A stretch of DNA of 64,000 nucleotides, taken from contig NC_091995.1 in NCBI RefSeq assembly GCF_044704955.1, forward strand, positions 54,994,001-55,058,000, written 5' to 3'. The notes under the pieces were generated by a model, which saw nothing but the letters and a program-made list of their open reading frames with translations, was not told the origin of the DNA and did not search any database. This document shows, piece by piece, positions 1-64,000 of this stretch. Positions within the stretch are counted from its first letter, which is position 1, and every line of letters begins with the position of its first letter. The position numbers and the translations under genes were made by a program. The stretch comes from Pristiophorus japonicus (Eukaryota).

Positions 1-2305
1 GCCTGAGGAACTGCGTTCTTTTTCTTTTTTTCCTGAGCTTACAGCTTGTAACTAGCAGATAAGCTACAATCAGGAGTTGGCCGATTACTAAGGCATGCGA
101 TCCCACCCGGATCCACGCAGGTATGTCTGCCCGTATCCCCAAATCCCACCATGCTGGGGGTTTAATCTGGGCAATCTCCTCTGCTAGAATTTCAGTTTTC
201 TGCTCCATGGTGTAAAAATGTTTTTGAGACAAATCCACTGCCTGGAGGAGGGCTGTAAGTTTCTCAGGTAGTGGGGCAATGGGATAGCTAAAATGGGCGA
301 CATATTGTTGTAGGTGGCTGAGGTTGTTTTGTACCGTGAGGTGAATCGTGGAAGGTTCAGGGATGGGTGTGATTCTGGTGTGTGCCACTTGAACCTCTGC
401 CCTGGGTTTAAAGCAAAAGCTGCTGTACGGTATTGGACACCACCTTCCCGGTCCGTGTTCATACCGTTGGGCACTTGTGGTGACACAATATGTCCCACTG
501 TCTACATATGCTACCTGTGGAGGCATGTGGTTAGGGGCCATTACCTCCATTGTGCAATTGATAGGCTCTGCCCCAGCAGTGCTGAACCCGCATTGTGGCC
601 TTGCAAAAGCGTTCAAGTGCTGGGGGCACAGGATTACCTGTGCTCCCCTGCTCCGACAACCCGAGAGGTCTGTACCTGTCACAGTGTGCTCCCACATTGT
701 GACATAAGGTGGGACCTCTTGGAATCGAACATGCACCCCTCCACGAATGACTCCCACATTCTCCACTCGGTACAGGGGTGCTGGTCGTGGGGACGCCCCC
801 ATCACGGGCATCCTGACCACCACACCCATGGTGGTATGGTTTGACTTTCCACAGTCCACCGGTACCGGGTAGGCTTCCGACGCTACACAAAGTTGGTAAG
901 GACTTTAAACATTATCATAAGGGTGCAGTGCTGCTAAGTGCTGGTTGCTGATCCAGGAGGGGACCTGTCCCTGTCTCAGATCCTCGAGGTTACTCCGTCC
1001 CTCTCCCAGCAACCACGCCCCAGAGAGCACGCACACCTCATTTTGGGCGGCTTGATCGGAGGCGTTTCTATCCTCCCGAATCAAGGCGTTTACAGCCCTG
1101 GCCTGCGCCTCCAATTGAGAGATAATCTCCTTTAAGTGAACTGTCATTGCCACCTCTTCGTGGAGCGCGGATCCCACTACGGTATTCTCGTCCCCCAGGA
1201 CTTTGCGCAGCTGATTCTTTAACCCATTTATCTGGAGGGCCAGCTGCATGTTATCCAAACTGTTTATGGCGGACGCCCCGGTGTTAAACCCCGTAAAAAT
1301 GTCATTTAAAGTGCCACGCCTCTGCCTGCCCGGTTCGGCCCTATCCCACTGTTTATACAAGTCTGTCACTTTGACATCCCCGAAGTCCAGTTCGTAGAAC
1401 TTCCGGAACATCTCCCGCAGCAGAGCCTGGTATAACAGCTCGGTTTCCCGGGGACACCACGTAGGTAGGCGGACTTCTGTCAGATTTAGCACCACTGATG
1501 CCACCGCGTAGTGTACCCCCTGATAAAATAGTTTCTCGGTAGGGACCAACACTAAACCATTCCCCGGCCCCCTGGTTGTTGTCGGGCTCCCGTGTGGGAC
1601 GGTGGGCTTGGCCGTGGGTGGGGGCTTCCTTTCCTGAACTACAAGTTCAGTGGCATTTACTGGTACCCGGGGATTGGGGATCACACACGCCTCCCCGCTG
1701 CGATCCCATACCACCCCATCCCCAACATCCTGCCACCACCTATAGAAAGCAATGGAGACCCCCTCTGAACACACGCGAGTGGATCCCAACATACACAAAT
1801 AAATTCCTTGGTCGTATGCCCACCATTTCTCCCAGCACACCGTGACCCCGCCAGATGACCCCATGATGGTTCGGTAGGTATCATTATCCAGACGTTCCCA
1901 GTCCGAGTGTCGGTCCCCCACGTCCCTCTTGAGCTTTCTGAGCCACCACCACTGTCCCAGAGGTATGTCCCCTTGGCAAGTTAGGCATACCTTCCTGCCT
2001 TCTGTCACTCTCACTCTGGAAGTGGTCACAGTGATCTCCGGGCAGGGGATGGAGGTCTCTCCGTAGGTAAAGTCCTTATGGTTGGAGTACTTGGTGGAGT
2101 TCGATCCCAACCACCCAGGCCATTTCTCCTCATGGGAGTAGGTGACCCGGCCATCCGCCGCCGGAGTCCCTTCTCCTGTGGTCACTGTCAGCGCTCTGCC
2201 CCCGGAGCATCCGAAAACCAGGGAGTCCTCGGTGTCCCCTCGGTGCCCGGTGCAGATCCTTAGCGATACCAGCATCACTAACGTCCAGTAGGGAGGTGTT
2301 GACAT
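1..2305 (-). pseudogene. env: env glycoprotein: signal peptide, Ig-like domain, P/T linker, F2-like region, furin site RQRR, fusion peptide, heptads, Cys-rich region, TM, basic tail; one premature TAA at 905-907
   Basis: ATG at 2305-2303 directly follows a polypyrimidine-CAG acceptor. Manual translation past the TAA stays open in the same frame to base 1 (...SPYQLCV...PLYRVENVGV...TYCVTT...WWDLG...VGSHALVIGQLLIVAYLLVTSCKLRKKRKRTQFLR). Confidence 0.85.
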
Positions 2306-2493
2306 CTGAAAGGCAAGAAGAACATGGCCTTGCCTTGAGAGACCTCTCCAGGCTCGGCCCACTTAACATGTTCCAAACATAAACTGCTGTACCCAACCGT
2401 CACTGCCTTACCTAAACACATATACTCACAACACAAAGTAACAAAACAGAAAGGGAAAATATACACACCGCCACCCGTCCCCGGATGGCCAGG

Positions 2494-4958
2494 CTACATC
2501 CTGTCACTGTACAGGCGTCGTCGACCACTCGGCTGACCGTACCCTAGGGACCAGGATGCCCTCCGCTGAGGGGCTCGTATAGTCCCCCTTAATGAGTCTT
2601 GTGCTGCCCTCCAAGGCCGTCCCGAGCCCCGGATAATCGGTGGGAGACCCTTGCTAGCGCAACAGAGCACCCTCCCTGTTGTCTTTCGCCTTCTTGGTCT
2701 GGGGCGGGGAGCTAAGTAAACAGGGGACCACGGCGCCCTGGGCTGTGGCACTCTGTCAGTCCTCCTTACTGTCGGTGCAGAGTCCCGCGTTATGGGCTGC
2801 AATGCCATTTCCTCCATCTCTTGGGCTAGCCCCAGCTGATCCACCATGGGAGGTTCAGCTTCCCCTTGGACCTTGCTAATGGTAGAGCCTTTCTCCCTAC
2901 TTCTGTTAGTGGGCTGGGAACCTCTACCCAGTGGTGGGATAGCCTTACAGGAGCAGTGAACCAGCCCCGGCTGTAGAGCTTCGGGGCCCGCTGCCTCCTC
3001 CGGAGCCTCCAAATCCACCGGGGCCTGTTCTTCCCCCAGTGCCTGATTCCCTTCCCTTGCTCGTCCCCTCTGTTTTTTACCTCTTTTGGGGTCAAACAAT
3101 TTACACTGATTAATGTGATACCACTTCACCCGGTGAGGCAATCGAACCGCATAGACCATAGGGCTAGCCTTGTCGACTATGCTGTATGGTCCCATATACA
3201 GTGGTTCAAATACCCCGATCCGGGCGAAGCTTCTCACCATCACCTGGTCGCCCACCTCCCAATCATGGTGACTGCGGGGTTCCAGCAGCAGCCGATTGGC
3301 ACGGTGCTGTTTACCCATGTTGTTGGCCGCCTGCCAGTGAAACTGTTGAAGCTGTTCGAACAGATTCCTGACAAAGCGGTCCCGGTTCACCTCTCGAAGC
3401 TGCCCTTCGGTGAGAACCAGCGCCAACACATGCACTGGGGTTCTCATGATCCGGCCCGTCATCAGCTCATGGGGTGAGTACCCTGTGCTCTTTGACTGAC
3501 TGGCCCGGATTCCCATGAGGACCAACGGTAAGACCTCCACCCACTTGTTCGGTGAGTCTCCCGTCTCCTTGCGCAGCCTTTCCTTTAGGGTCCGGTTCAG
3601 GCGTTCTACGGGGCCTGAGGACTGAGGATTGTAGGCGACATGCCATTTGGCTCTTATCCCCAACACCTTTAGGGTGGCCTGCATCACCTGGCCGGTGAAG
3701 TGGCTTCCCCGGTCGGACTCCACGATTTGAGGTAGACCTCACCGAGAGAACACCTCCCTCACCAGGATTTTTGCAGTCCCCACCGCGGTAGCTGTTCGGC
3801 AAGGGAAGGCTTCCACCCATTTGGAAAACACATCCACCAGGACGAGGCAATATTTATAACCTCCCTGGGCGGCCGGTAGGGGTCCGATGTAGTCGATCTG
3901 GATCGACTGCCATGGTCCCTCTACCCGCCTGACGTGTCCCATAGACGCCTTCCTTTTCTGAGGGTCTGGGTTGTTTGCAGCGCAAACCAGACAGCCCGCA
4001 CAGAAGTCGCGGACGTCTTCCCGGAGGTCTGGCCACCACCCTGCCTTTTCTACCCGTTGCCAGGTAGATTCCGGCCCAGGGTGTCCCGCACCTGGACCCT
4101 CATGGGCCAGCTGAAGGAATTCCCTCCGGTGTTGTGGCGACACTACCCATTTGTCCCCTTTAAACAACATGCCTTCCCGCACAGCAATATCTGCAGCACT
4201 GTATGGACCCTCCGCCTTTTCCCCCCTTTTTGATAGCAGCCAAGGCAGCCTTCAGGACCGGGTCCTGCATCTGGACTACTTTAAGGTCCGGGGCCGCAGC
4301 CGCCCCTACGCTCCCTTGTGTCCCTGGCTTGCTTCTTGCTGCTGCTATCCTGCCTTTCTCGTATTGGTCCCATGGGCGACCTGTACGAGCATCTTCCCTT
4401 GCCAGCAGGTCTGCCTGCTGGTTACCTTCCCCCCCGTGGCTCAGTTTTGGAGTGGGCCTTTACCTTATGGATATATACATCCCCGGTTTCTCTCACTGCA
4501 GCCACGACGTTTTCTAGCGGGGGTTTGGTCACAAGGGGCTTCCCATCCGCAGAGGTGTACCCCCGGCGTGACCAAATCGCCAGATACTCTGTACACGGAT
4601 TGCAAGTGAACATGCTGTCCGAGCAAATCGTGTATGGGGTAGGGAATTCCTCGGGGTGTGTGACCACATACATCACCGCCGAGATTTCCGCCTGCTGGGC
4701 GCTCAGGGTGCATGGGAGTTTAAGAGCCAAGGCAATTCCTGCCTTGGGATCCCAAACTCTGCAGCCCGTGAGTCTTGTACCCGCGGGCACTGAACTGGAG
4801 CCGTCAACATAGATCTCGCGGCCTGTGGGGTGTATCCCTGCCCGAAATCCAAAGTTGATGTCCCATACCCCCTCCACAGAGCATCTATGCGGCTGCCCTG
4901 GATAGATTAAATTTGCTGCGAGCTTGGGCTCGCAGAGGCCCTTGACCTTTAAAGTCAT
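2494..4958 (-). pseudogene. pol: pol remnant: tether/RNase H, integrase, long C-terminal extension
   Basis: RNase H ORF 4422-4958, frameshifted in a G run near 4430 (GNQQADLLA continues in another frame). Integrase H..H..CxxC, IDYIGP, SDRGSHF, SGPVERLNRTLK and MGPY. In-frame TGA at 3739-3741 where Trp is expected (FSR*GLPQIVESD). Confidence 0.9.
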
Positions 4959-5395
4959 TTATTCTCTAGTTCCCAAATTTTCTGGGTGTACCGAGAGTTC
5001 TGTTCCCGGAGGGACCCCTCACTACCCTTGGCCTCAGTGACCTGACACTGAAAATAGTCCCGGCTATTTCGGAAGGTCTCCTCCAACTGCCTCTTCCCTT
5101 GCTGCTCCTCAGCTAATTCGGCCAGCAGGTTGTCCCCAGCCGCAGCCCGGATAGCAGGGAGCTCCTCTGAGTTCTGAAGACTCTGTTCTAAGTCCTTCAC
5201 CCGCTGGTCGAGCTTTCGGACTTGGCGGGTGAGGCAGATAAGCCAGATGGCCTTTTCCACCCTGTGGTTGTGGTCCTTCCCTGCTGTCCACTGGGCAGCA
5301 GCATCCATTGGGCGCTCTGCCCGAGTGAGGGCTTGCACCCAAGGTTTGGTGAGGTTCATCTTGCCAAAAATGTATGAGGAAATTCTCTCCTCCAT
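4955..5395 (-). pseudogene. gag: N-terminal gag fragment with coiled coil, fused by deletion to the RNase H region
   Basis: ATG at 5395 in AAAATGG context shortly after the putative PBS. Heptad-rich (RQVRKLDQRVKDLEQSLQN...LREQNSRYTQKIWELENK*). Ends abruptly at the pol remnant. Confidence 0.6.
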
Positions 5396-5469
5396 TTTAG
5401 TTTCCTCTCTTATCACCTCATCTGTTTTATTAACATCTCCTGTTTGCTTATGTCCTGCCGCGGTCACCA

Positions 5470-6499
5470 TGTTCTGTAAGGGGTTTTCTCAGGGAGTGTT
5501 GTTGTGCCTTGAGTGTCTCTCTCTGGGCTTCTGCCCTCACAGCTTATGTCTGGCCTGTGAGGTACCCTGAGTGCTGCAAGAGCACCCCTGGAGAGACTGT
5601 GTCCACAGCTTATGAAGGGGGTTTTGAGACTCGTGCGTCCCCACAGCTTATGCCTAGCCTGTGAGGCACCTGTGAGTGTCAAACACTCCTAACCCCTTCT
5701 TCCCTAGCCGGTGACACACAGTTGAGCGTTTTCGAGGCGCTCCTAGCTTCCCTTACACGGTTCTGACATAAGACTCACGATCAGGAGATGTAATACAATA
5801 GAACTGAGACAAGGTGATTCCAGGAGGAATTTTAGGCTTCCAATTTATTTGACAAGGTGTATCTCAACAAACAGCAATACACCAACAAAACAATCCCCCT
5901 AAATCCCACTAAACGGACACAACGAAAATCTTTACACAAGTTTAGCAGTACAATGCCCAACCTCCCACCTTTCCTGGCCTAACTGAGTTGGGAATTCTGG
6001 GGACCAGAGGTTATACTCACTACTGTGCCTTCTGCAGTCTAGTGGTTTGTTTCTTCTATCTTCGGTGCCTTCGGACACTGGTTTTCCTTCAGTGTCGAGA
6101 GGCTTGCTGGTTGTTGGATGACGAGGGCAGGGAACCACCCACACTACGTCAGAAACCCCTTTTTATAGCCAGATTATCCAGTCCGCCTCTCCTGCTGAAA
6201 TCGATTCTTCCCATCGGTGGGCTTTGTGATTTCCTTCCATAGTGTAAACATGGGGAAGACAATAGTCCGATAATGGCTGTGAGTCAGTCCCAAAGTTTTC
6301 GAGCAAGTGCTCTCCCATTGGCTTGAAAGCCCCATGCTTCGGGCTGACTCTGTCTCACCATTGGTCCTCCGGTGTCCTCCCCCGTCCAATCACTGCTCTG
6401 CCAAATTCAAACTGTTATCGGTTTCAATTCACAGCACAGACTGATCCCATAGCCCTTTTCCTTCTGGGTAAAATGAGGGGGTTTTTGTCCTCCCCTACA
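5470..6499 (-). repeat. Putative 5' LTR of the provirus, about 1 kb
   Basis: Starts TGTAGGGG (6499) where host Gypsy sequence stops. Ends ...CCCCTTACAGAACA before PBS-like TGGTGACCGCGGCAGGAC (5469-5452). TATAAAA at 6167-6161, AATAAA at 5849-5844. The second LTR is not in the window, so the boundaries are unconfirmed. Confidence 0.55.
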
Positions 6500-48239: not shown

Positions 48240-51200
48240 TTACTGTAGTTTAATGACTGTATCCTCACTGGTGTGGTTTATATTTACTGTAATTTAGTGA
48301 CTGAATCCTCATTGGTGTGGTTTAGTGACTGGATCCTCATTGGTGTGGTTTATATTTACCGTAGTTTAGTGACTGGATCCTCACTGGTGTGGTTTATATT
48401 TACTGTAGTTTAATGACTGGATCCTCACTGGTGTGGTTTATATTTACTGAAGTTTAATTACTGTATCCACGCTGGTGTGGTTTATATTTACTGTAGTTGA
48501 GTGACTATTTCCTCACTGGTGTGGTTTATATTTACTGCAGTTTTGTGACCGGATCCTCACTGGTGTGGTTTATATTTACTGCAGTTTAGTGACTGGATCC
48601 TCACTGGTGTGGTTTATATTTACTGTAGTTTAGTGACTGGAGCCTCACTGGTGTGGTTTATATTTACTGTAGTTTAGTGACTGGATCCTCACTGGTGTGG
48701 TTTATATTCACTGTAGTTTAGTGACTGGATCCTCACTGGTGTGGTTTATATTTACTGTAGTTTAGTTACTGTATCCTCACTGGTGTGGTTTATATTTACT
48801 GTAGTTAGTGACTGAAGCCTCACTGGTGTGGTTTATTTTACTGCAGTTTAGTGACTGGATACTCACTGGTGTGGTTTATATTTACTGTAGTTTAGTGACT
48901 GGATACTCAATGGTGTGGTTTATATTTACTGTAGTTTAGTGACTGTAGCCTCACTGGTGTGGTTTATATTTACTGTAGTTTAGTGACTGTATCCTCACTG
49001 GTGTGGTTTATATTTTCTATAGTTTAGTGACTGGATCCTCACTGGGGTGGTTTATATTTACTGTAGTTTAGTGACTGGATCCTCACTGGTGTGGTTTATA
49101 TTTACTGTAGTTTAGTGACTGGATCCTCACTGGTGTGGTTTATATTTACTGTAGTTTAGTGACTGGAGCCTCACTGGTGTGGTTTATATTTACTGTAGTT
49201 TAGTGACTGGAGCCTCACTGGTGTGGTTTATATTTACTGTAGTTTAGTGACTGGAGCCTCACTGGTGTGGTTTATATTTACTGTAGTTTAGTGACTGGAT
49301 CCTCACTGGTGTGGTTTATATTTACTGTAGTTTAGTGACTGGATCCTCACTGGTGTGGATTATATTTACTGTAGTTTAGTGACTGGAGCCTCACTGGTGT
49401 GGTTTATATTTACTGTAGTTTAGTGACTGGAGCCTCACTGGTGTGGTTTATATTTACTGTAGTTTAGTGACTGGATCCTCACTGGTGTGGTTTATATTTA
49501 CTGTAGTTTAGTGACTGGATCCTCACTGGTGTGGTTTATATTTACTGTAGTTTAGTGACTGGATCCTCACTGGTGTGGTTTATATTTACTGTAGTTTAGT
49601 GACTGGAGCCTCACTGGTGTGGTTTATATTTACTATAGTTTAGTAACTGGAGCCTCACTGGTGTGGTTTATATTTACTGTAGTTTAGTGACTGGATCCTC
49701 ACTGGTGTGGTTTATATTTACTGTAGTTTAGTGACGGGATCCTTACTGGTGTGGTTTATATTTATTGTAGTTTAGTGACTGTATCCTCACTGGTGTGGTT
49801 TATATTTACCATAGTTTAGTGACCGGATCCTCACTGGTGCGAGTTATATTTACTGTAGTTCAGTGACTGGATCCTCACTGGTGTGGTTCATATTTACTGT
49901 AGTTTAGTGACTGTATCCTCACTGGTGTGGTTTACATTTACTGAAGTTTAATTACTGTATCCACGCTGGTGAGGTTTATATTTACTGTAATTTAGTGACT
50001 ATTTCCTCACTGGTGTGGTTTATATTTACTGTAGTTCAGTGACTGTATCCTCACTGGTGTGGTTTATATTTACTGTAGTTTAGTGACTGGATCCTCACTG
50101 GTGTGGTTTATATTCACTGTAGTTTAGTGACTGGATCCTCACTGGTGTGGTTTATATTTACTGTAGTTTAGTTACTGTATCCTCACTGGTGTGGTTTATA
50201 TTTACTGTAGTTAGTGACTGAAGCCTCACTGGTGTGGTTTATTTTACTGCAGTTTAGTGACTGGATACTCACTGGTGTGGTTTATATTTACTGTAGTTTA
50301 GTGACTGGATACTCAATGGTGTGGTTTATATTTACTGTAGTTTAGTGACTGTAGCCTCACTGGTGTGGTTTATATTTACTGTAGTTTAGTGACTGTATCC
50401 TCACTGGTGTGGTTTATATTTTCTATAGTTTAGTGACTGGATCCTCACTGGGGTGGTTTATATTTACTGTAGTTTAGTGACTGGATCCTCACTGGTGTGG
50501 TTTATATTTACTGTAGTTTAGTGACTGGATCCTCACTGGTGTGGTTTATATTTACTGTAGTTTAGTGACTGGAGCCTCACTGGTGTGGTTTATATTTACT
50601 GTAGTTTAGTGACTGGAGCCTCACTGGTGTGGTTTATATTTACTGTAGTTTAGTGACTGGAGCCTCACTGGTGTGGTTTATATTTACTGTAGTTTAGTGA
50701 CTGGATCCTCACTGGTGTGGTTTATATTTACTGTAGTTTAGTGACTGGATCCTCACTGGTGTGGATTATATTTACTGTAGTTTAGTGACTGGAGCCTCAC
50801 TGGTGTGGTTTATATTTACTGTAGTTTAGTGACTGGAGCCTCACTGGTGTGGTTTATATTTACTGTAGTTTAGTGACTGGATCCTCACTGGTGTGGTTTA
50901 TATTTACTGTAGTTTAGTGACTGGATCCTCACTGGTGTGGTTTATATTTACTGTAGTTTAGTGACTGGATCCTCACTGGTGTGGTTTATATTTACTGTAG
51001 TTTAGTGACTGGAGCCTCACTGGTGTGGTTTATATTTACTATAGTTTAGTAACTGGAGCCTCACTGGTGTGGTTTATATTTACTGTAGTTTAGTGACTGG
51101 ATCCTCACTGGTGTGGTTTATATTTACTGTAGTTTAGTGACGGGATCCTTACTGGTGTGGTTTATATTTATTGTAGTTTAGTGACTGTATCCTCACTGGT

Positions 51201-54200
51201 GTGGTTTATATTTACCATAGTTTAGTGACCGGATCCTCACTGGTGCGAGTTATATTTACTGTAGTTCAGTGACTGGATCCTCACTGGTGTGGTTCATATT
51301 TACTGTAGTTTAGTGACTGTATCCTCACTGGTGTGGTTTACATTTACTGAAGTTTAATTACTGTATCCACGCTGGTGAGGTTTATATTTACTGTAATTTA
51401 GTGACTATTTCCTCACTGGTGTGGTTTATATTTACTGTAGTTCAGTGACTGTATCCTCACTGGTGTGGTTTATATTTACTGTAGTTTCGTGACTGGATCC
51501 TCACTGGTGTGGTTTATATTTACTGTAATTTAGTGACTATTTACTCACTGGTGTGGTTTATATTTACTGTAGTTCAGTGACTGTGTCCTCACTGGTGTGG
51601 TTTATATTTACTGTAGTTTAGTGACTGTATCCTCACTGGTGTGGTTTATATTTACTGTAGTTTAGTGACTGGATCCTCACTGGTGTGGTTTATATTTACT
51701 GTAGTTTAGTGATTGGATCCTCACTGGTGTGGTTTATATTTACTGTAGTTTAGTGATTGTATCCTCACTGGTGTGGTTTATATTTACTGTAGTTTAGTGA
51801 CTGTATCCTCACTGGTGTGGTTTATATTTACTGTAGTTTAGTGACTGGAGCCTCACTGGTGTGGTTTATATTTACTGTAGTTTAGTGACTGGAGCCTCAC
51901 TGGTGTGGTTTATATTTACTGTAGTTTAGTGACTGGATCCTCACTGGTGTGGTTTATATTTACTGTAGTTTAGTGACTGGATCCTCACTGGTGTGGTTTA
52001 TATTTACTGTAGTTTAGTGACTGGAGCCTCACTGGTGTGGTTTATATTTACTGTAGTTTAGTGACTGGAGCCTCACTGGTGTGGTTTATATTTACTGTAG
52101 TTTAGTGACTGGATCCTCACTGGTGTGGTTTATATTTACTGTAGTTTAGTGACTGGATCCTCACTGGTGTGGTTTATATTTACTGTAGTTTAGTGACTGG
52201 ATCCTCACTGGTGTGGTTTATATTTACTGTAGTTTAGTGACTGGAGCCTCACTGGTGTGGTTTATATTTACTGTAGTTTAGTGACTGGAGCCTCACTGGT
52301 GTGGTTTATATTTACTGTAGTTTAGTGACTGGAACCTCACTGGTGTGGTTTATATTTACTGTAGTTTAGTGACTGTATCCTCACTGGTGTGGTTTACATT
52401 TACTGAAGTTTAATTACTGTATCCATGCTGGTGTGGTTTATATTTACTGTAGTTGAGTGACTATTTCCTCACTGGTGTGGTTTATATTTACTATAGTTTA
52501 GTGACTGGATCCTCACTGGTGCGATTTATATTTACTGTAGTTCAGTGACTGGATCCTCACTGGGGTGGTTTATATTTACTGTAGTTTAGTGACTGGATCC
52601 TCACTGGTGTGGTTTATATTTACTGCAGTTTTGTGACCGGATTCTCACTGGTGTGGTTTATATTTACTGCAGTTTAGTGACAGTATCCTCACTGGTGTGG
52701 TTTATATTTACTGCAGTTTTGTGACTGGATCCTCACCGGTGTGGTTTATATTTACTGTAGTTTAGTGACAGTATCCTCACTGGTGTGGTTTATATTTACA
52801 GTAGTTTAGTGACTGGATTCTCACTCGTGTGCTTTATATTTACTTTAGTTTAGCGACTGGATCTTCACAGGTGTGGTTTATATTCACTGTAGTTTAATGA
52901 CTGTATCCACGCTGGTGTGGTTTATATTTACTGTAATTTAGAGACTATTTCCTCACTGGTGTGGTTTATATTTACTGTAGTTCAGTGACTGTATCCTCAC
53001 TGGTGTGGTTTATATTTACTGTAGTTTCGTGACTGGATCCTCACTGGTGTGGATTATATTTACTGTAATTTAGTGACTATTTACTCACAGGTGTGGTTTA
53101 TATTTACTGTAGTTCAGTGACTGTGTCCTCACTGGTGTGGTTTATATTTACTGTAGTTTAGTGACTGGATCCTCAATGGTGTGGTTTATATTTACTGTAG
53201 TTTAGTGACTGGATCCTCACTGGTGTGGTTTATATTTACTGTAGTTTAGTGATTGTATCCTCACTGGTGTGGTTTATATTTACTGTAGTTTAGTGATTGT
53301 ATCCTCACTGGTGTGGTTTATATTTACTGTAGTTTAGTGATTGTATCCTCACAGGTGTGGTTTATATTTACTGTAGTTTAGTGACTGTACCCTCACTGGT
53401 GTGGTTTATATTTACTGTAGTTTAGTGACTGGATCCTCACTGGTGTGGTTTATATTTACTGTAGTTTAGTGACTGGATCCTCACTGGTGTGGTTTATATT
53501 TACTGTAGTTTAGTGATTGTATCCTCACTGGTGTGGTTTATATTTACTGTAGTTTCGTGATTGCATCCTGACTGGTGTGGTTTATATTTACTATAGTTTA
53601 GTGACTGGATCCTCACTGGTGTGGTTTATATTTACTGTAGTTTAGTGACTGGATCCTCACTGGTGTGGTTTACATTTACTGTAGTTGAGTGAACAGATCC
53701 TCACTGGTGTGGTTTATATTTACTGTTGTTTAGTGACTAGATCCTCACTGGTGTGGTTGAAATTAACTGTAGTTTAGTGACTGGATCCTCACTGGTGTGG
53801 TTTATATTTAGTGCAGTTTGTGGCTGGATCCTCACTGGTGTGGTTTATATTTACTGTAATTTTGTGACTGGATCCTCACTGGTGTGGTTTATATTTACTG
53901 TAGTTTAGTGACTGGATCCTCACTGCTGTGGTTTATATTTACTGTAGTTTAGTGACTGGATCCTCACTGGTATGGTTTATATTTAATGTAGTTTAGTGAC
54001 TGGTTCCTCACTGGGGTGGTTTATATTTACTGTAGTTTAGTGACTGTATCCTCACTGGTGTGGTTTATATTTACTGTAGTTTAGTGACTGGATCCTCACT
54101 GGTGTGGTTTATATTTACTGTAGTTTTGTGACTGGATCCTCACTGGTGTGGTTTATATTTACTGTAGTTTAGTGACTGGATCCTCACTGCTGTGGTTTAT

Positions 54201-57200
54201 ATTTACTGTAGTTTAGTGACTGGATCCTCACTGGTATGGTTTATATTTAATGTAGTTTAGTGACTGGTTCCTCACTGGTGTGGTTTATATTTACTGTAGT
54301 TCATGTGACTGTATCCTCACTGGTATGGTTTACATTTACCGTAGTTTAGTGACTGGATCCTCACTGGTGTGATTTATATTTACTGTAGTTTAGTGACTGG
54401 ATCCTCACTGGTGTGGTATATATTTACTGTAGTTTAGTGCCGAGATCCTCACTGGTATGGTTGATATTTACTGTAGTTTAGTGACTGGATCTTCACTGGT
54501 GCGATTTATATTTACTGTCGTTTAGTGACTATATCCTCACTGGTGTGGTTTATATTTACTGTAGTGTAGTGACTATATCCTCACTGGTGTGGTTTACATT
54601 TACTGTAGTTGAGTGACTAGATCCGCACTGGTGTGGTTGAAATTAACTGTAGTTTAGTGACTGGATCCTCACTGGTGTTGTTGAAATTAACTGTAGTTTA
54701 GTGACTGGATCCTCACTGGTGTGGTTTACATTTACTGTAGTTGAGTGAACAGATCCTCACTGGTGTGGTTTATATTTACTGTAGTTTAGTGACTGGATCC
54801 ACACTGGTGTGGTTTATATTTACTGTAGTCTAGTGACTGTATCCTTACTGGTGTGGTTTATATTTACTGTAGTTTAGTGCCTGCATCCTCACTGGTGTGG
54901 TTTATATTTACTGTCGTTTAGTGACTATATCCTCACTGGTGTGGTTTATATTTACTGCAGTGTAGTGACTGGATCCTCACTGGTGTGGTTTACATTTACT
55001 GTAGTTGAGTGAACAGATCCTCACTGGTGTGGTTTATCTTTACTGTTGTTTAGTGACTAGATCCTCACTGGTGTGGTTGAAATTAACTGTAGTTTAGTGA
55101 CTGGATCCTCACTGGTGTGGTTTATATTTAGTGCAGTTTGTGGCTGGATCCTCACTGGTGTGGTTTATATTTACTGTAGTTTTGTGACTGGATCCTCACT
55201 GGTGTGGTTTATATTTACTGTAGTTTAGTGACTGGATCCTCACTGCTGTGGTTTATATTTACTGTAGTTTAGTGACTGGATCCTCACTGGTATGGTTTAT
55301 ATTTAATGTAGTTTAGTGACTGGTTCCTCACTGGGGTGGTTTATATTTACTGTAGTTTAGTGACTGTATCCTCACTGGTGTGGTTTATATTTACTGTAGT
55401 TTAGTGACTGGATCCTCACTGGTGTGGTTTATATTTACTGTAGTTTAGTGACTGGATCCTCACTGGTGTGGTTTATATTTACTGTAGTTTAGTGACTGGA
55501 TCCTCACTGCTGTGGTTTATATTTACTGTAGTTTAGTGACTGGATCCTCACTGGTATGGTTTATATTTAATGTAGTTTAGTGACTGGTTCCTCACTGGTG
55601 TGATTTATATTTACTGTAGTTCATGTGACTGTATCCTCACTGGTGTGGTTTACATTTACCGTAGTTTAGTGACTGGATCCTCACTGGTGTGATTTATATT
55701 TACTGTAGTTTAGTGACTGGATCCTCACTGGTGTGGTATATATTTACTGTAGTTTAGTGCCTAGATCCTCACTGGTATGGTTGATATTTACTGTAGTTTA
55801 GTGACTATATCCTCACTGGTGTGGTTTATATTTACTGTAGTGTAGTGACTGGATCCTCACTGGTGTGGTTTATATTTACTGTCGTTTAGTGACTATATCC
55901 TCACTGGTGTGGTTTATATTCACTGCAGTGTAGTGACTGGATCCTCACTGGTGTGGTTTACATTTACTGTAGTTGAGTGAACAGATCCTCACTGGTGTGG
56001 TTTATATTTACTGTTGTTTAGTGACTAGATCCTCACTGGTGTGGTTAAAATTAACTGTAGTTTAGTGACTGGATCCTCACTGGTGTGGTTTATATTTAGT
56101 GCAGTTTGTGGCTGGATCCTCACTGGTGTGGTTTATATTTACTGTAATTTTGTGACTGGATCCTCACTGGTGTGGTTTATATTTACTGTAGTTTAGTGAC
56201 TGGATCCTCACTGCTGTGGTTTATATTTACTGTAGTTTAGTGACTGGATCCTCACTGGTATGGTTTATATTTAATGTAGTTTAGTGACTGGATCCTCACT
56301 GCTGTGGTTTATATTTACTGTAGTTTAGTGACTGGATCCTCACTGGTATGGTTTATATTTAATGTAGTTTAGTGACTGGTTCCTCACTGGTGTGGTTTAT
56401 ATTTACTGTAGTTCATGTGACTGTATCCTCACTGGTGTGGTTTACATTTACCGTAGTTTAGTGACTGGATCCTCACTGGTGTGATTTATATTTACTGTAG
56501 TTTAGTGACTGGATCCTCACTGGTGTGGTATATATTTACTGTAGTTTAGTGCCTAGATCCTCACTGGTATGGTTGATATTTACTGTAGTTTAGTGACTGG
56601 ATCTTCACTGGTGTGATTTATATTTACTGTCGTTTAGTGACTATATCCTCACTGGTGTGGTTTATATTTACTGTAGTGTAGTGACTATATCCTCACTGGT
56701 GTGGTTTACATTTACTGTAGTTTAGTGACTAGATCCGCACTGGTGTGGTTGAAATTAACTGTAGTTTAGTGACTGGATCCTCACTGGTGTTGTTGAAATT
56801 AACTGTAGTTTAGTGACTGGATCCTCACTGGTGTGGTTTACATTTACTGTAGTTGAGTGAACAGATCCTCACTGGTGTGGTTTATATTTACTGTAGTTTA
56901 GTGACTGGATCCACACTGGTGTGGTTTATATTTACTGTAGTCTAGTGACTGTATCCTTACTGGTGTGGTTTATATTTACTGTAGTTTAGTGCCTGCATCC
57001 TCACTGGTGTGGTTTATATTTACTGTCGTTTAGTGACTATATCCTCACTGGTGTGGTTTATATTTACTGTAGTGTAGTGACTGGATCCTCACTGGTGTGG
57101 TTTATATTTACTGTCGTTTAGTGACTATATCCTCACTGGTGTGGTTTATATTCACTGCAGTGTAGTGACTGGATCCTCACTGGTGTGGTTTACATTTACT

Positions 57201-60200
57201 GTAGTTGAGTGAACAGATCCTCACTGGTGTGGTTTATATTTACTGTTGTTTAGTGACTAGATCCTCACTGGTGTGGTTGAAATTAACTGTAGTTTAGTGA
57301 CTGGATCCTCACTTTGTGTGGTTTATATTTAGTGTAGTTTGTGGCTGGATCCTCACTGGTGTGGTTTATATTTACTGTAATTTTGTGACTGGATCATCAC
57401 TGGTGTGGTTTATATTTACTGTAGTTTAGTGACTGGATCCTCACTGCTGTGGTTTATATTTACTGTAGTTTAGTGACTGGATCCTCACTGGTATGGTTTA
57501 TATTTAATGTAGTTTAGTGACTGGTTCCTCACTGGGGTGGTTTATATTTACTGTAGTTTAGTGACTGTATCCTCACTGGTGTGGTTTATATTTACTGTAG
57601 TTTAGTGACTGGATCCTCACTGGTGTGGTTTATATTTACTGTAGTTTTGTGACTGGATCCTCACTGGTGTGGTTTATATTTACTGTAGTTTAGTGACTGG
57701 ATCCTCACTGCTGTGGTTTATATTTACTGTAGTTTAGTGACTGGATCCTCACTGGTATGGTTTATATTTAATGTAGTTTAGTGACTGGTTCCTCACTGGT
57801 GTGGTTTATATTTACTGTAGTTCATGTGACTGTATCCTCACTGGTGTGGTTTACATTTACCGTAGTTTAGTGACTGGATCCTCACTGGTGTGATTTATAT
57901 TTACTGTAGTTTAGTGACTGGATCCTCACTGGTGTGGTATATATTTACTGTAGTTTAGTGCCGAGATCCTCACTGGTATGGTTGATATTTACTGTAGTTT
58001 AGTGACTGGATCTTCACTGGTGCGATTTATATTTACTGTCGTTTAGTGACGATATCCTCACTGGTGTGGTTTATATTTACTGTAGTGTAGTGACTATATC
58101 CTCACTGGTGTGGTTTACATTTACTGTAGTTTAGTGACTAGATCCGCACTGGTGTGGTTGAAATTAACTGTAGTTTAGTGACTGGATCCTCACTGGTGTT
58201 GTTGAAATTAACTGTAGTTTAGTGACTGGATCCTCACTGGTGTGGTTTACATTTACTGTAGTTGAGTGAACAGATCCTCACTGGTGTGGTTTATATTTAC
58301 TGTAGTTTAGTGACTGGATCCACACTGGTGTGGTTTATATTTACTGTAGTCTAGTGACTGTATCCTTACTGGTGTGGTTTATATTTACTGTAGTTTAGTG
58401 CCTGCATCCTCACTGGTGTGGTTTATATTTACTGTCGTTTAGTGACTATATCCTCACTGGTGTGGTTTATATTTACTGCAGTGTAGTGACTGGATCCTCA
58501 CTGGTGTGGTTTACATTTACTGTAGTTGAGTGAACAGATCCTCACTGGTGTGGTTTATATTTACTGTTGTTTAGTGACTAGATCCTCACTGGTGTGGTTG
58601 AAATTAACTGTAGTTTAGTGACTGGATCCTCACTGGTGTGGTTTATATTTAGTGCAGTTTGTGGCTGGATCCTCACTGGTGTGGTTTATATTTACTGTAG
58701 TTTTGTGACTGGATCCTCACTGGTGTGGTTTATATTTACTGTAGTTTAGTGACTGGATCCTCACTGCTGTGGTTTATATTTACTGTAGTTTAGTGACTGG
58801 ATCCTCACTGGTATGGTTTATATTTAATGTAGTTTAGTGACTGGTTCCTCACTGGGGTGGTTTATATTTACTGTAGTTTAGTGACTGTATCCTCACTGGT
58901 GTGGTTTATATTTACTGTAGTTTAGTGACTGGATCCTCACTGGTGTGGTTTATATTTACTGTAGTTTAGTGACTGGATCCTCACTGGTGTGGTTTATATT
59001 TACTGTAGTTTAGTGACTGGATCCTCACTGCTGTGGTTTATATTTACTGTAGTTTAGTGACTGGATCCTCACTGGTATGGTTTATATTTAATGTAGTTTA
59101 GTGACTGGTTCCTCACTGGTGTGATTTATATTTACTGTAGTTCATGTGACTGTATCCTCACTGGTGTGGTTTACATTTACCGTAGTTTAGTGACTGGATC
59201 CTCACTGGTGTGATTTATATTTACTGTAGTTTAGTGACTGGATCCTCACTGGTGTGGTATATATTTACTGTAGTTTAGTGCCTAGATCCTCACTGGTATG
59301 GTTGATATTTACTGTAGTTTAGTGACTATATCCTCACTGGTGTGGTTTATATTTACTGTAGTGTAGTGACTGGATCCTCACTGGTGTGGTTTATATTTAC
59401 TGTCGTTTAGTGACTATATCCTCACTGGTGTGGTTTATATTCACTGCAGTGTAGTGACTGGATCCTCACTGGTGTGGTTTACATTTACTGTAGTTGAGTG
59501 AACAGATCCTCACTGGTGTGGTTTATATTTACTGTTGTTTAGTGACTAGATCCTCACTGGTGTGGTTGAAATTAACTGTAGTTTAGTGACTGGATCCTCA
59601 CTGGTGTGGTTTATATTTAGTGCAGTTTGTGGCTGGATCCTCACTGGTGTGGTTTATATTTACTGTAATTTTGTGACTGGATCCTCACTGGTGTGGTTTA
59701 TATTTACTGTAGTTTAGTGACTGGATCCTCACTGCTGTGGTTTATATTTACTGTAGTTTAGTGACTGGATCCTCACTGGTATGGTTTATATTTAATGTAG
59801 TTTAGTGACTGGTTCCTCACTGGGGTGGTTTATATTTACTGTAGTTTAGTGACTGTATCCTCACTGGTGTGGTTTATATTTACTGTAGTTTAGTGACTGG
59901 ATCCTCACTGGTGTGGTTTATATTTACTGTAGTTTAGTGACTGGATCCTCACTGGTGTGGTTTATATTTACTGTAGTTTAGTGACTGGATCCTCACTGCT
60001 GTGGTTTATATTTACTGTAGTTTAGTGACTGGATCCTCACTGGTATGGTTTATATTTAATGTAGTTTAGTGACTGGTTCCTCACTGGTGTGGTTTATATT
60101 TACTGTAGTTCATGTGACTGTATCCTCACTGGTGTGGTTTACATTTACCGTAGTTTAGTGACTGGATCCTCACTGGTGTGATTTATATTTACTGTAGTTT

Positions 60201-63200
60201 AGTGACTGGATCCTCACTGGTGTGGTATATATTTACTGTAGTTTAGTGCCTAGATCCTCACTGGTATGGTTGATATTTACTGTAGTTTAGTGACTGGATC
60301 TTCACTGGTGTGATTTATATTTACTGTCGTTTAGTGACTATATCCTCACTGGTGTGGTTTATATTTACTGTAGTGTAGTGACTATATCCTCACTGGTGTG
60401 GTTTACATTTACTGTAGTTTAGTGACTAGATCCGCACTGGTGTGGTTGAAATTAACTGTAGTTTAGTGACTGGATCCTCACTGGTGTTGTTGAAATTAAC
60501 TGTAGTTTAGTGACTGGATCCTCACTGGTGTGGTTTACATTTACTGTAGTTGAGTGAACAGATCCTCACTGGTGTGGTTTATATTTACTGTAGTTTAGTG
60601 ACTGGATCCACACTGGTGTGGTTTATATTTACTGTAGTCTAGTGACTGTATCCTTACTGGTGTGGTTTATATTTACTGTAGTTTAGTGCCTGCATCCTCA
60701 CTGGTGTGGTTTATATTTACTGTCGTTTAGTGACTATATCCTCACTGGTGTGGTTTATATTTACTGTAGTGTAGTGACTGGATCCTCACTGGTGTGGTTT
60801 ATATTTACTGTCGTTTAGTGACTATATCCTCACTGGTGTGGTTTATATTTACTGCAATGTAGTGACTGGATCCTCACTGGTGTGGTTTACATTTACTGTA
60901 GTTGAGTGAACAGATCCTCACTGGTGTGGTTTATATTTACTGTTGTTTAGTGACTAGATCCTCACTGGTGTGGTTGAAATTAACTGTAGTTTAGTGACTG
61001 GATCCTCACTGGTGTGGTTTATATTTACTGTAGTTTAGTGACTGGATCCTCACTGGTGTGGTTTATATTTACTGTAGTTTTGTGACTGGATCCTCACTGG
61101 TGTGGTTTATATTTACTGTAGTTTAGTGACTGGATCCTCACTGCTGTGGTTTATATTTACTGTAGTTTAGTGACTGGATCCTCACTGGTATGGTTTATAT
61201 TTAATGTAGTTTAGTGACTGGTTCCTCACTGGGGTGGTTTATATTTACTGTAGTTTAGTGACTGTATCCTCACTGGTGTGGTTTATATTTACTGTAGTTT
61301 AGTGACTGGATCCTCACTGGTGTGGTTTATATTTACTGTAGTTTTGTGACTGGATCCTCACTGGTGTGGTTTATATTTACTGTATTTTAGTGACTGGATC
61401 CTCACTGCTGTGGTTTATATTTACTGTAGTTTAGTGACTGGATACTCACTGGTATGGTTTATATTTAATGTAGTTTAGTGACTGGTTCCTCACTGGTGTG
61501 GTTTATATTTACTGTAGTTCATGTGACTGTATCCTCACTGGTGTGGTTTACATTTACCGTAGTTTAGTGACTGGATCCTCACTGGTGTGATTTATATTTA
61601 CTGTAGTTTAGTGACTGGATCCTCACTGGTGTGGTATATATTTACTGTAGTTTAGTGCCTAGATCCTCACTGGTATGGTTGATATTTACTGTAGTTTAGT
61701 GACTGGATCTTCATTGGTGTGATTTATATTTACTGTCGTTTAGTGACTATATCCTCACTGGTGTGGTTTATATTTACTGTAGTGTAGTGACTATATCCTC
61801 ACTGGTGTGGTTTACATTTACTGTAGTTTAGTGACTAGATCCGCACTGGTGTGGTTGAAATTAACTGTAGTTTAGTGACTGGATCCTCACTGGTGTTGTT
61901 GAAATTAACTGTAGTTTAGTGACTGGATCCTCACTGGTGTGGTTTACATTTACTGTAGTTGAGTGAACAGATCCTCACTGGTGTGGTTTATATTTACTGT
62001 AGTTTAGTGACTGGATCCACACTGGTGTGGTTTATATTTACTGTAGTCTAGTGACTGTATCCTTACTGGTGTGGTTTATATTTACTGTAGTTTAGTGCCT
62101 GCATCCTCACTGGTGTGGTTTATATTTACTGTCGTTTAGTGACTATATCCTCACTGGTGTGGTTTATATTTACTGTAGTGTAGTGACTGGATCCTCACTG
62201 GTGTGGTTTATATTTACTGTCGTTTAGTGACTATATCCTCACTGGTGTGGTTTATATTTACTGCAGTGTAGTGACTGGATCCTCACTGGTGTGGTTTACA
62301 TTTACTGTAGTTGAGTGAACAGATCCTCACTGGTGTGGTTTATATTTACTGTAGTTTAGTGACTGGATCCTCACTGGTGAGGTTTATATTTACTGCAGTT
62401 TAGTGACTGGAACCTCAATGGTGTGGTTTATATTTACTATAATTTAGTGACTGGATCCTCACTGGGGTGGTTTATATTTACTGTAGTTTAGTGACTGTAT
62501 CCTCACTGGTGTGGTTTATATTTACTGTAGTTTAGTGACTGTATCCTCACTGGTGTGGTTTATATTTACTGTAGTTTAGTGACTGGATCCTCACTGGTGT
62601 GGTTTATATTTACTGTAGTTTAGTGACTAGATCCTCACTGGTGTGGTTTATATTTACTGTAGTTTAGTGATTGGATCCTTACTGGTGTGGTTTATATTTA
62701 CTGTTTTTTAGTGACTAGATACTCACTGGTGTGGTTTATATTTACAGTTGTTTAGTGATTGGATCCTCACTGCTGTGGTTTATATTTACTGTATTTTAGT
62801 GACTGGATCCTCACTGGTGTGGTTTATATTTACTGTAGTTTAGTGACTGGATCCTCACTGGTGTGGTTTATATTTATTGTAGTTTAGTGACTGTATCCTC
62901 ACTGGTGTGGTTTATATTTACTGTAGTTTAGTGACTGAATGCCCACTGGTGTGGTTTATATTGACTGTAGTTTACTGACTGGATCCTCACTGGTGTGGTT
63001 TATATTTACTATAGTTTAATGAGTGGATCCTCACTGGTGTGGTTTCTATTTTCTGTAGTTTAGTGACTGGATCCTCACTGGTGTGGTTTATATTTACTAT
63101 CGTTTAGTGACTGGATCCTCACTGGTGTGGTTTATATTTACTGTAGTTTAGTGACTGGATCCTCACTGGGATGGTTTATATTTACTATAGTTTAATGACG

Positions 63201-64000
63201 GGATCCTCACTGGTGTGCTTTATATTCACTGTAGTTTAATGGCTGGATCCTCACTGGTGTGCTTTATATTTACTGTAGTTTAGTGACTAGATCCTCAATG
63301 GTGTGGTTTATATTTACTATAGTTTAGTGACTGGATCCTCACTGGGGTGGTTTATATTTACTGTAGTTTAGTGACTGTATCCTCACTGGTGTGGTTTATA
63401 TTTACTGTAGTTTAGTGACTGTATCCTCACTGGTGTGGTTTATATTTACTGTAGTTTAGTGACTGGATCTTCACTGGTGTGGTTTATATTTACTGTAGTT
63501 TAGTGACTGGATCCTCACTGGTGTGGTTTATATTTACTGTCGATTATTGACGAGATCCTCACTGGTGTGGTTTATATTTACTGTAGTTTAGTGACTGGAT
63601 CCTCACTGGGATGGTTTATATTTACTGTAGTTTAGTGACTGGATCCTCACTGGTGTGGTTTATATTTACTGTAGTTTCGTGACTGAATGCCCACTGGTGT
63701 GGTTTATATTTACTGTCGTTTAGTGACTGTATCCTCATTGGTGTGGTTTATATTTAATGTAGTTTAGTGACTGGATCCTCACTGGTGTGGTTTATATTTA
63801 CTGTAGTTTAGTGACTGGAGCCTGACTGGTGTGGTTTATATTTACTGTAGTTTAGTGACTGGATCCTCACTGGTGTGGTTTATATTTACTGTAGTTTCGT
63901 GACTGGATCCTCATTGGTGTGGTTTATATTTGCTGTAGTTTAGTGACTGGATCCTCACTGGTGTGGTTTATATTTACTGATGTTTCGTGACTGGATCCTC
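48240..64000. repeat. 44-bp satellite array (about 355 monomers, runs off the window) with higher-order repeats
   Basis: Consensus TTTAGTGACTGGATCCTCACTGGTGTGGTTTATATTTACTGTAG, containing a BamHI site. Confidence 0.98.

What the first reader, a model, noticed from the sequence alone, without database searches (positions are those of the whole stretch)
1742..2041. Immunoglobulin-like domain built into the N-terminus of a retroelement envelope fusogen
Seen: between the signal peptide and the fusogen core the env reads ITVTTSRVRVTEGRKVCLTC-x10-W...DQGIYLC. This is the A'-B strand pattern (V.EG..V.L.C), the C-strand Trp and the F-strand D-x-G-x-Y-x-C of V/I-set Ig domains, with 61 residues between the canonical Cys and an extra Cys pair. 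A Pro/Thr-rich linker (KPPPTAKPTVPHGSPTTTR) follows. Known: paramyxo/pneumovirus F proteins use a separate attachment protein, and I know of no sequence-recognisable IgSF domain in classical retroviral SU. Inference: a captured host IgSF module acting as receptor-binding or immune-decoy domain, giving a single-chain attachment plus fusion protein. I cannot tell whether this has been reported.
Basis: partly seen in the sequence, partly recalled or inferred. Interest (0 to 1): 0.9.

Follow-up and report, generated by a model that had tools for sequence, protein, structure and literature searches.

The report
Antibody-like tip on shark retrovirus envelope
A broken copy of a very abundant shark endogenous retrovirus encodes an envelope protein with an antibody-like domain at its front end, probably the part that grips the host cell; mammalian retroviruses are known to use such domains, but here one sits on a different kind of fusion machine.

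Summary
The Ig-like domain is real. It scores Pfam Ig_3 E=1.1e-5, below the curated cut-off, beats 300 of 300 shuffles on a host V-set profile, and a low-confidence model matches only IgSF folds. It is present in 150 of 150 scored copies and under purifying selection (dN/dS 0.17). The element is not a lokiretrovirus: its RT groups with true retroviruses and looks snakehead-retrovirus-like. Its Env core resembles loki/F-type fusogens only by language-model features and motifs; HMMER finds no link. None of the 22 published loki Env N-termini seen has an insert. Sister Env families vary in this slot; two shark heads and a frog gene-model tail are Ig-like. Ig-fold N-terminal receptor-binding domains with a proline-rich linker, including a SIRP-derived IgV, are described for gamma-type Env. 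Foamy Env already joins attachment to an F scaffold. What is new is the combination. No host donor was found and binding is inferred. The scan noted this layout twice before in other genomes.

The parts
1742..2041 (-). Ig-like (V/I-type) domain, Env residues 89-188; C110 at 1976-1978, W121, C171 at 1793-1795
2246..2305 (-). env start codon and signal-peptide-like residues 1-20
   Evidence: sequence; no signal-peptide predictor was run
2306..2322 (-). splice-acceptor-like pyrimidine tract plus AG directly before the env ATG; AG-ATG kept in 19 of 20 copies
   Evidence: splicing is inferred
2042..2245 (-). N-terminal sub-region (residues 21-88), conserved in the family, fold unclear
   Evidence: dN/dS 0.23 for residues 21-85
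1628..1741 (-). segment between the Ig domain and the linker (residues 189-226), with C207 and one N-glycosylation sequon
1571..1627 (-). Pro/Thr-rich linker (residues 227-245), running into the start of the conserved core
1316..1570 (-). F2-like first part of the fusogen core, from the GP-x-G motif to the furin-type site RQRR (1316-1327)
   Evidence: compared by eye with published Loki Env
1..1315 (-). F1-like part: fusion-peptide-like start, heptad region, Cys-rich region, second heptad, membrane anchor (about 41-106). Broken by an in-frame stop at 905-907; the gene ends about 30 bases left of the window
2494..4958 (-). 3' part of pol (RNase H, integrase, C-terminal extension), with frameshifts and a stop in this copy
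4955..5470 (-). 5' remnant of gag, joined to pol by an internal deletion of about 3.2 kb at about 4957-4960
5452..5469 (-). primer-binding site, 5 bases after the LTR; one mismatch from a host tRNA-Arg(TCG) 3' end
5475..6499 (-). 5' LTR (TG...CA). The 3' LTR lies left of the window (L021:4593-5593), 95.8% identical, with a 4-base target-site duplication

Best explanation
This is the env gene of one defective copy of a high-copy shark endogenous retrovirus of the snakehead-retrovirus-like lineage. Its Env has an F-type (class Ib) fusion core and carries a host-derived Ig domain as a plug-in head that binds a cell-surface partner. Shown: the Ig fold signal, its family-wide conservation and purifying selection, the provirus anatomy, the RT position outside lokiretroviruses, and the variable head slot on a shared core. 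Inferred: Env is made from a spliced RNA and cut by furin at RQRR; the Ig head stays on the F2-like subunit, held out on the Pro/Thr linker; it binds a host surface protein (IgSF-type contact) and concentrates or triggers the fusogen, as the RBD plus proline-rich region does in gamma-type Env. The head was captured long ago from a host IgSF gene and has diverged beyond donor assignment.
For: Ig signal. Conservation: 150 of 150 scored matches span residues 1-231/235 at 93-100%. C107, C110, W121, C157 and C171 are kept in 20 of 20 subfamily-A1 loci and in 14-15 of 15 A2 loci. dN/dS between one A1 and one A2 copy is 0.17 in the Ig domain against 0.12 in the F1-like part. The head is less conserved than the start of the core across species (45% against 69% to Rhinoraja P0002), as expected of a receptor-binding part. 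Slot: at least five Env families in G000 share the core but differ in the head. Heads of family B (L068), Chiloscyllium P0026 and the tail of frog gene model P0035 also beat the shuffles (0 of 300 each). Published Loki Envs have no head. Precedents for position and role. RT.
Against: No binding data. Pfam score is below the curated cut-off. Both AlphaFold models are low-confidence (pLDDT 44.5 and 47.6) and Z stays under 8. A profile of family A alone finds only weak PDB hits, with a non-Ig protein first (ArfGAP E=0.13, CRTAM E=0.2). The JAM-A hit at 3.7e-9 came from a mixed-family profile and sums two domains. No host donor among 30 host V domains. HMMER links the core neither to PF00523 nor to any solved F protein; F-likeness rests on Atlas scores of 0.92 and on motifs compared by eye. 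SnRV itself could not be put in the tree.
Confidence: 0.58

Rival explanations
1. The Ig head is real and host-derived but serves mainly as an immune decoy or shield (engaging an inhibitory receptor or masking the core), while cell attachment uses the core or glycans.
For: 22 of 22 Loki Env N-termini seen lack a head, so a related core can presumably work without one. Families C, D and E have heads with no Ig signal (20, 73 and 148 of 300 shuffles as high). Hotzel argues that a newly captured RBD first has only a helper role. Poxvirus and herpesvirus IgSF decoys are established knowledge (recalled).
Against: Position (N-terminal, before a proline-rich linker) matches known receptor-binding domains. 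Similarity to any host protein is very low, whereas mimicry usually keeps donor likeness.
Confidence: 0.17
2. The Ig fold is real but is an old viral module passed between retroviral Envs (like RBD-C) or inherited from the ancestor of this lineage, not a capture from a shark gene.
For: No donor found. A and B heads from Envs only about 25-28% alike in the core are weakly linked through P0026 (blastp E=2e-4 and 2e-8 among 9 heads), which points to one old origin. RBD transfer between distant Envs is documented.
Against: The canonical B-F Cys pair, the Trp and the D-x-G-x-Y-x-C motif are kept, which RBD-C lacks. The P0026 head hits antibody VH chains (E=0.008) and the frog tail hits SLAMF5 and CEACAM (E=0.004, 0.054), both cellular. 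This rival concerns origin and is compatible with receptor binding.
Confidence: 0.18
3. The region is a Cys/Trp-rich viral beta domain that only mimics Ig motifs.
For: Score below the Pfam cut-off. Rhinoraja homologues P0002 and P0005 have no Pfam hit at E<=0.5. Low model confidence. The Atlas notes that shuffled proteins reach 0.9 in 4-10 of 100 cases.
Against: Independent sequence, profile-versus-shuffle, language-model and structure comparisons all point to IgSF. UniRef independently names the distant relative P0026 'Ig-like domain-containing protein'.
Confidence: 0.07

Closest known systems
SIRP-like IgV RBD of alpharetrovirus-like Env (Env-Dbi) and RBD-C of MLV/FeLV (Hotzel, bioRxiv 10.1101/2024.03.17.585361; abstract, section 10, first part of discussion and passages read)
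   Same: N-terminal Ig domain after the signal peptide; proline-rich region after it (RBD-C); canonical B-F disulfide plus an extra disulfide (Env-Dbi); heads exchanged between Env lineages.
   Different: There the scaffold is a gamma-type SU/TM of mammalian ERVs and the donor (SIRP) is clear by BLAST. Here the core is F/loki-like, the host is a shark, and no donor is recognisable.
Lokiretrovirus Env (Wang and Han, PMC7947760; main text parts 1-3 of 4, supplement parts 1, 40, 68 and searches)
   Same: Core motifs correspond by eye: GP-x-G start, furin site, G-x-[IV]-P-S, cysteine series, membrane anchor. The pol has a tether plus a second RNase H.
   Different: No N-terminal insert in 22 of 22 Loki Env N-termini seen. 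RT is not in the loki clade (LPQGF, not CPFGY; AU p=0.031). Loki was reported in 0 of 6 chondrichthyan genomes.
Snakehead retrovirus (SnRV) and elephant-shark CmiERV lineage I (PMC12193657 passages; PMC4422223 part 1 of 2; Hart 1996 not held, recalled)
   Same: RT about 49% identical by hand count (97 of 199 columns, against 74 of 199 for Loki-Lca); tRNA-Arg primer site (an SnRV trait by recall); cartilaginous-fish ERVs of this lineage are known.
   Different: No SnRV Env sequence or structure was available, and the passages read do not describe its fold or an Ig domain. The accessory ORFs of SnRV were not looked for.
Foamy virus Env and coronavirus spike as class Ib fusogens (Fernandez et al., PMC11468914; passages read)
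   Same: One chain combines an F-like scaffold with a receptor-binding module; the paper states that the scaffold accepts modules at the N-terminus.
   Different: The foamy RBD is a novel fold inserted before the furin site; here the module is an N-terminal IgSF-type domain.
CrocERV31 nectin3 capture (Chong et al., PMC4299795; passages read)
   Same: An ERV carries a captured host IgSF sequence at the env position.
   Different: The whole nectin3 mRNA replaces env there; here one Ig domain is built into a retained fusogen.

Membership tests
IgSF V/I-set domain | B- and F-strand Cys about 55-75 residues apart, C-strand Trp, D-x-G-x-Y-x-C before the F Cys | tested here: met
   C110, W121, D165-Q-G-I-Y-L-C171; Cys and Trp kept in 20 of 20 A1 and 14-15 of 15 A2 loci; the Asp is Glu in A2
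IgSF V/I-set domain | Score above a curated Pfam Ig cut-off | tested here: not met
   Ig_3 26.3 bits against 30; V-set and I-set not listed at E<=1
IgSF V/I-set domain | Two-sheet Ig sandwich with the B-F disulfide | tested here: inconclusive
Lokiretrovirus | RT falls in the loki clade | tested here: not met
   Two quick trees place it with class I retroviruses and frog/coelacanth pols, away from P0041 (SH-aLRT 99 and 98); AU p=0.031 against joining P0041. Only one loki row, identified by eye against Loki-Lca
Lokiretrovirus | Tether plus second RNase H in pol | tested here: met
   RT_RNaseH 471-603 and RNase_H 651-793 in another copy's pol; shared with all retroviruses, so not diagnostic
Lokiretrovirus | Env with detectable similarity to PF00523 fusion glycoprotein | tested here: inconclusive
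   0 of 27 core sequences hit PF00523 at E<=1 and the profile finds no F structure; Atlas 0.92 to Baculo_F/Gypsy and Fusion_gly clusters; motifs match Loki Env by eye
SnRV-like (class III) retrovirus | RT closer to SnRV than to other groups | tested here: inconclusive
   Hand count against the published alignment: 97 of 199 (SnRV) against 74 of 199 (Loki-Lca); other groups were counted only in part; SnRV was not in the trees
SnRV-like (class III) retrovirus | tRNA-Arg primer-binding site (recalled as an SnRV trait) | tested here: met
   PBS of other copies matches host tRNA-Arg(CCG); this copy's PBS is one mismatch from tRNA-Arg(TCG)
SnRV-like (class III) retrovirus | Accessory ORFs and complex splicing; large Gag coiled coil (the latter recalled) | not tested
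   Gag N-terminal half looks helical by eye; no predictor run; no RNA holder listed
Gamma-type Env with RBD-C or SIRP-like RBD | N-terminal Ig-fold domain followed by a proline-rich region | tested here: met
Gamma-type Env with RBD-C or SIRP-like RBD | Gamma-type TM (immunosuppressive domain, CX6CC) | tested here: not met
   No retroviral Env Pfam hit for the family-A Env at E<=5; no adjacent Cys pair in its sequence
Class Ib fusion protein (F, foamy Env, spike) | Domains I-III fold and trimeric six-helix bundle | not tested

The most novel reading that the evidence does not exclude
SnRV-like retroviruses of fishes and frogs carry an F-type (class Ib) Env with an N-terminal plug-in slot that has been filled more than once with host IgSF V domains: one kind in the shark A/B families, and a Cys-less SLAM/CEACAM-like kind in a frog relative. 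Ig receptor-binding heads would then have been captured convergently on both structural classes of retroviral Env, and one such Ig-headed env (family B, L068) would have been domesticated by the shark host.
Probability: 0.3. Interest if true: 0.75.

Novelty: new variant of a known kind. Interest (0 to 1): 0.52.

Why it matters
It extends receptor-domain capture, so far shown for mammalian gamma-type Env, to the F-type fusogen and to the oldest jawed vertebrates. It suggests that F-like Env is not confined to lokiretroviruses and foamy viruses but also occurs in an SnRV-like branch, which bears on which Env the first retroviruses had. One genome holds at least five families with a shared core and different heads, so head exchange and receptor use can be studied directly. 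The concept itself (Ig head, proline-rich linker, fusogen) is not new.

Tried and rejected
Lokiretrovirus membership, my first working idea and the closest kin named in the two earlier scan notes, was rejected on RT. The careful tree did not finish; both trees are quick ones (52 and 27 rows; P0120 dropped for short cover). A single-sequence AlphaFold model was too poor to use (pLDDT 44.5). Foldseek against viral models found nothing (best E=0.11). Profile-profile comparisons of the family-A head with the B, P0026, frog, C, D and E heads were all non-significant (probability under 4%, 6 of 6), so shared ancestry of the heads is only weakly supported. A donor search was negative: best blastp E=0.055 for the window head against 30 of the 150 listed host V-set loci; I-set and C-set host domains were not sampled. 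The frog Ig tail has no match in G000 with this query. Viral contigs gave no relative; three metagenome hits were 15-18-residue chance matches. Expression: no RNA holder listed, and the four runs laid are contigs of unrecorded kind. Literature: no paper describing an Ig domain in an F-type, loki or SnRV-like Env appeared in searches. 'Immunoglobulin' had 0 hits in PMC7947760, PMC9040795, 10.1101/2023.10.26.564294, 10.1101/2021.11.23.469661, PMC12690878, 10.1101/2024.07.05.601823, PMC12440569, PMC12193657, PMC13709493 and PMC12583693; PMC8672886 had two unrelated hits. Subscription journals are mostly not held; Hart 1996 was not held; bioRxiv supplements (for example Hotzel's Env list) were not seen and could hold fish Envs. 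No complex prediction was sent.

Full report
Observation. The finding lies on the minus strand in an ORF that starts at the ATG at 2305 and stops at 905-907; the same frame goes on past the left end of the window. Bases 1742-2041 are residues 89-188.

The element. The window holds most of one provirus of about 7.9 kb: 5' LTR at 5475-6499, a 3' LTR left of the window that is 95.8% identical, TG...CA ends and a 4-base target duplication. It is defective, with a deletion of about 3.2 kb from gag into pol, frameshifts in pol and the stop in env. The family is abundant: 9399 first-look candidates, of which 150 were scored, and all 150 cover residues 1-231/235 at 93-100%. A second subfamily (A2, about 55-60% to A1 in the head) is also abundant. 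Other copies show gag with a CCHC finger and pol with protease, RT, tether, RNase H and integrase. The env ATG follows a pyrimidine tract and AG in 19 of 20 copies. Named Env homologues come from sharks and skates, and proteins labelled Pristiophorus japonicus match G000 at 100%.

The Ig domain was useful to the virus. C107, C110, W121, C157 and C171 are kept in 20 of 20 A1 loci and 14-15 of 15 A2 loci. Between one A1 and one A2 copy dN/dS is 0.17 in the domain and 0.12 in the F1-like part (one pair, pS 0.65-0.70). It is therefore not a chance insertion in this copy.

Which retrovirus? The nearest pols are frog, Xenopus and coelacanth sequences at 41-45%; an eel pol that matches the published Loki-Lca by eye (P0041) is only 33% identical. 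Two quick trees put the shark family with those pols and class I retroviruses, away from P0041 (SH-aLRT 99 and 98), and the AU test rejects joining it to P0041 at p=0.031 (one loki row, no SnRV or foamy row). By hand count against the published RT alignment it shares 97 of 199 columns with snakehead retrovirus and 74 of 199 with Loki-Lca, and has LPQGF where Loki has CPFGY. Its primer site matches host tRNA-Arg, an SnRV trait by my recall. Wang and Han found Loki in 0 of 6 chondrichthyan genomes, while Han reports SnRV-like ERVs in elephant shark. I read it as SnRV-like at about 0.75.

The core. HMMER does not link the core to PF00523 or to any solved F protein (0 of 27 sequences). The Atlas puts it next to Baculo_F/Gypsy and Fusion_gly clusters at 0.91-0.92. 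By eye it follows the published Loki Env from the GP-x-G motif through the furin site and the cysteine series to the anchor. So the F-type call is probable, not shown. In 22 of the 23 Loki Env proteins seen, that motif follows the signal peptide at once; the 23rd lacks its N-terminus, and the supplement was held only to page 300 of 318. The shark Env has about 225 extra residues in front.

A variable slot. G000 holds at least five Env families that share the core at 25-32% identity but differ in the head. Heads of A, A2, the skate homologue, family B, Chiloscyllium P0026 and the tail of frog model P0035 score above shuffles on the host V profile (0-1 of 300); heads C, D and E do not. P0026 hits antibody VH chains (E=0.008) and the frog tail SLAMF5 (E=0.004). 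Profile comparisons between the heads are not significant, though blastp links A2 to P0026 (2e-4) and P0026 to B (2e-8) in a nine-sequence set. One old capture for A and B is the simplest reading; the frog head may be a second. That the frog tail belongs to env is inferred from a gene model. No donor gene was found among 30 host V domains.

Mechanism. Shown steps are those above. Inferred: spliced env RNA, signal peptide, furin cleavage at RQRR, trimeric F-type core, and the Ig head on the F2-like subunit at the end of a Pro/Thr stalk, binding a cell-surface protein to attach or trigger. I give this 0.58; immune decoy 0.17; an old viral module with no shark donor 0.18; not Ig 0.07.

Comparison with what is known. 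Hotzel's preprint describes the IgV-like RBD and proline-rich region of MLV and FeLV, RBD transfer between Envs, and a SIRP-derived canonical IgV RBD recognised by BLAST (abstract, section 10, first part of discussion). Fernandez et al. show that foamy Env is an F scaffold with an inserted RBD and note that the scaffold takes N-terminal modules, as in spike (passages). Chong et al. report nectin3 replacing env in a crocodilian ERV (passages). I found no paper on an Ig head in an F-type, loki or SnRV-like Env, within a library that lacks most subscription papers. Two earlier notes of this scan saw the same layout in other cartilaginous-fish genomes and named loki Env as closest; they are not independent evidence. 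My RT result differs from a loki reading.

Verdict. The feature is real and functional in the family, and is a new variant of a known kind: an Ig receptor-binding-type head on an F-like Env of an SnRV-like shark retrovirus. The side finding of a lone open family-B env among decayed relatives deserves its own look.

Noticed in passing
L068:3351-5708 (G000:C18, about 30167350-30169700, minus strand): A single env of a second family (B) has an unbroken 786-codon frame, while its listed relatives in G000 are 78-89% identical in DNA and nearly all carry stops or are in pieces. Only integrase scraps lie upstream. This is the pattern of a host-co-opted env. Its head is Ig-like but has Trp in place of the F-strand Cys.
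   Followed up: partly
P0035 (Pyxicephalus gene model), residues about 1190-1331: A frog pol 44% identical to this family's pol ends in a signal-peptide-like stretch and a Cys-less SLAM/CEACAM-like IgV. Probably the env exon, but the locus could not be fetched.
   Followed up: partly
P0026 (Chiloscyllium punctatum, 739 aa): A full-length Env relative, auto-named 'Ig-like domain-containing protein' in UniRef; its closest relatives in G000 (up to 76%) are heavily broken. Possibly another co-opted env.
   Followed up: partly
L069, L073, L083: Env families C, D and E share the core but have Cys-rich heads with no Ig signal. D and E keep a short V-C-x-x-C-like motif at the place of the B strand, so they may be degenerate Ig domains (not significant).
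   Followed up: partly
window 5452-5469 and L024, L026, L034, L036: Primer-binding sites differ between copies and follow different tRNA-Arg isoacceptors (CCG and TCG checked), as expected if the site is copied from the primer during replication.
   Followed up: partly
L028, L034, L036 gag-pol junction: gag and pol are in one frame, separated by TGA followed by CTA, a read-through-type context (the meaning of the context is recalled).
   Followed up: no
window 2494-3100: pol runs on for about 200 low-complexity residues after the integrase SH3 region; an accessory frame could lie here.
   Followed up: no
window 2042-2245: Residues 21-85 begin with a motif that aligns weakly to the A'-B strands of the frog IgV (E=0.014); possibly the remnant of a second Ig domain.
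   Followed up: no
P0003, P0006: Host gene models (Niban-like and zinc-finger) have env pieces of this group fused in; probably annotation artefacts, though exonisation is possible.
   Followed up: no
window 48320-64000: A 44-base satellite array of at least 356 copies, 91% matches, with strong strand skew.
   Followed up: no
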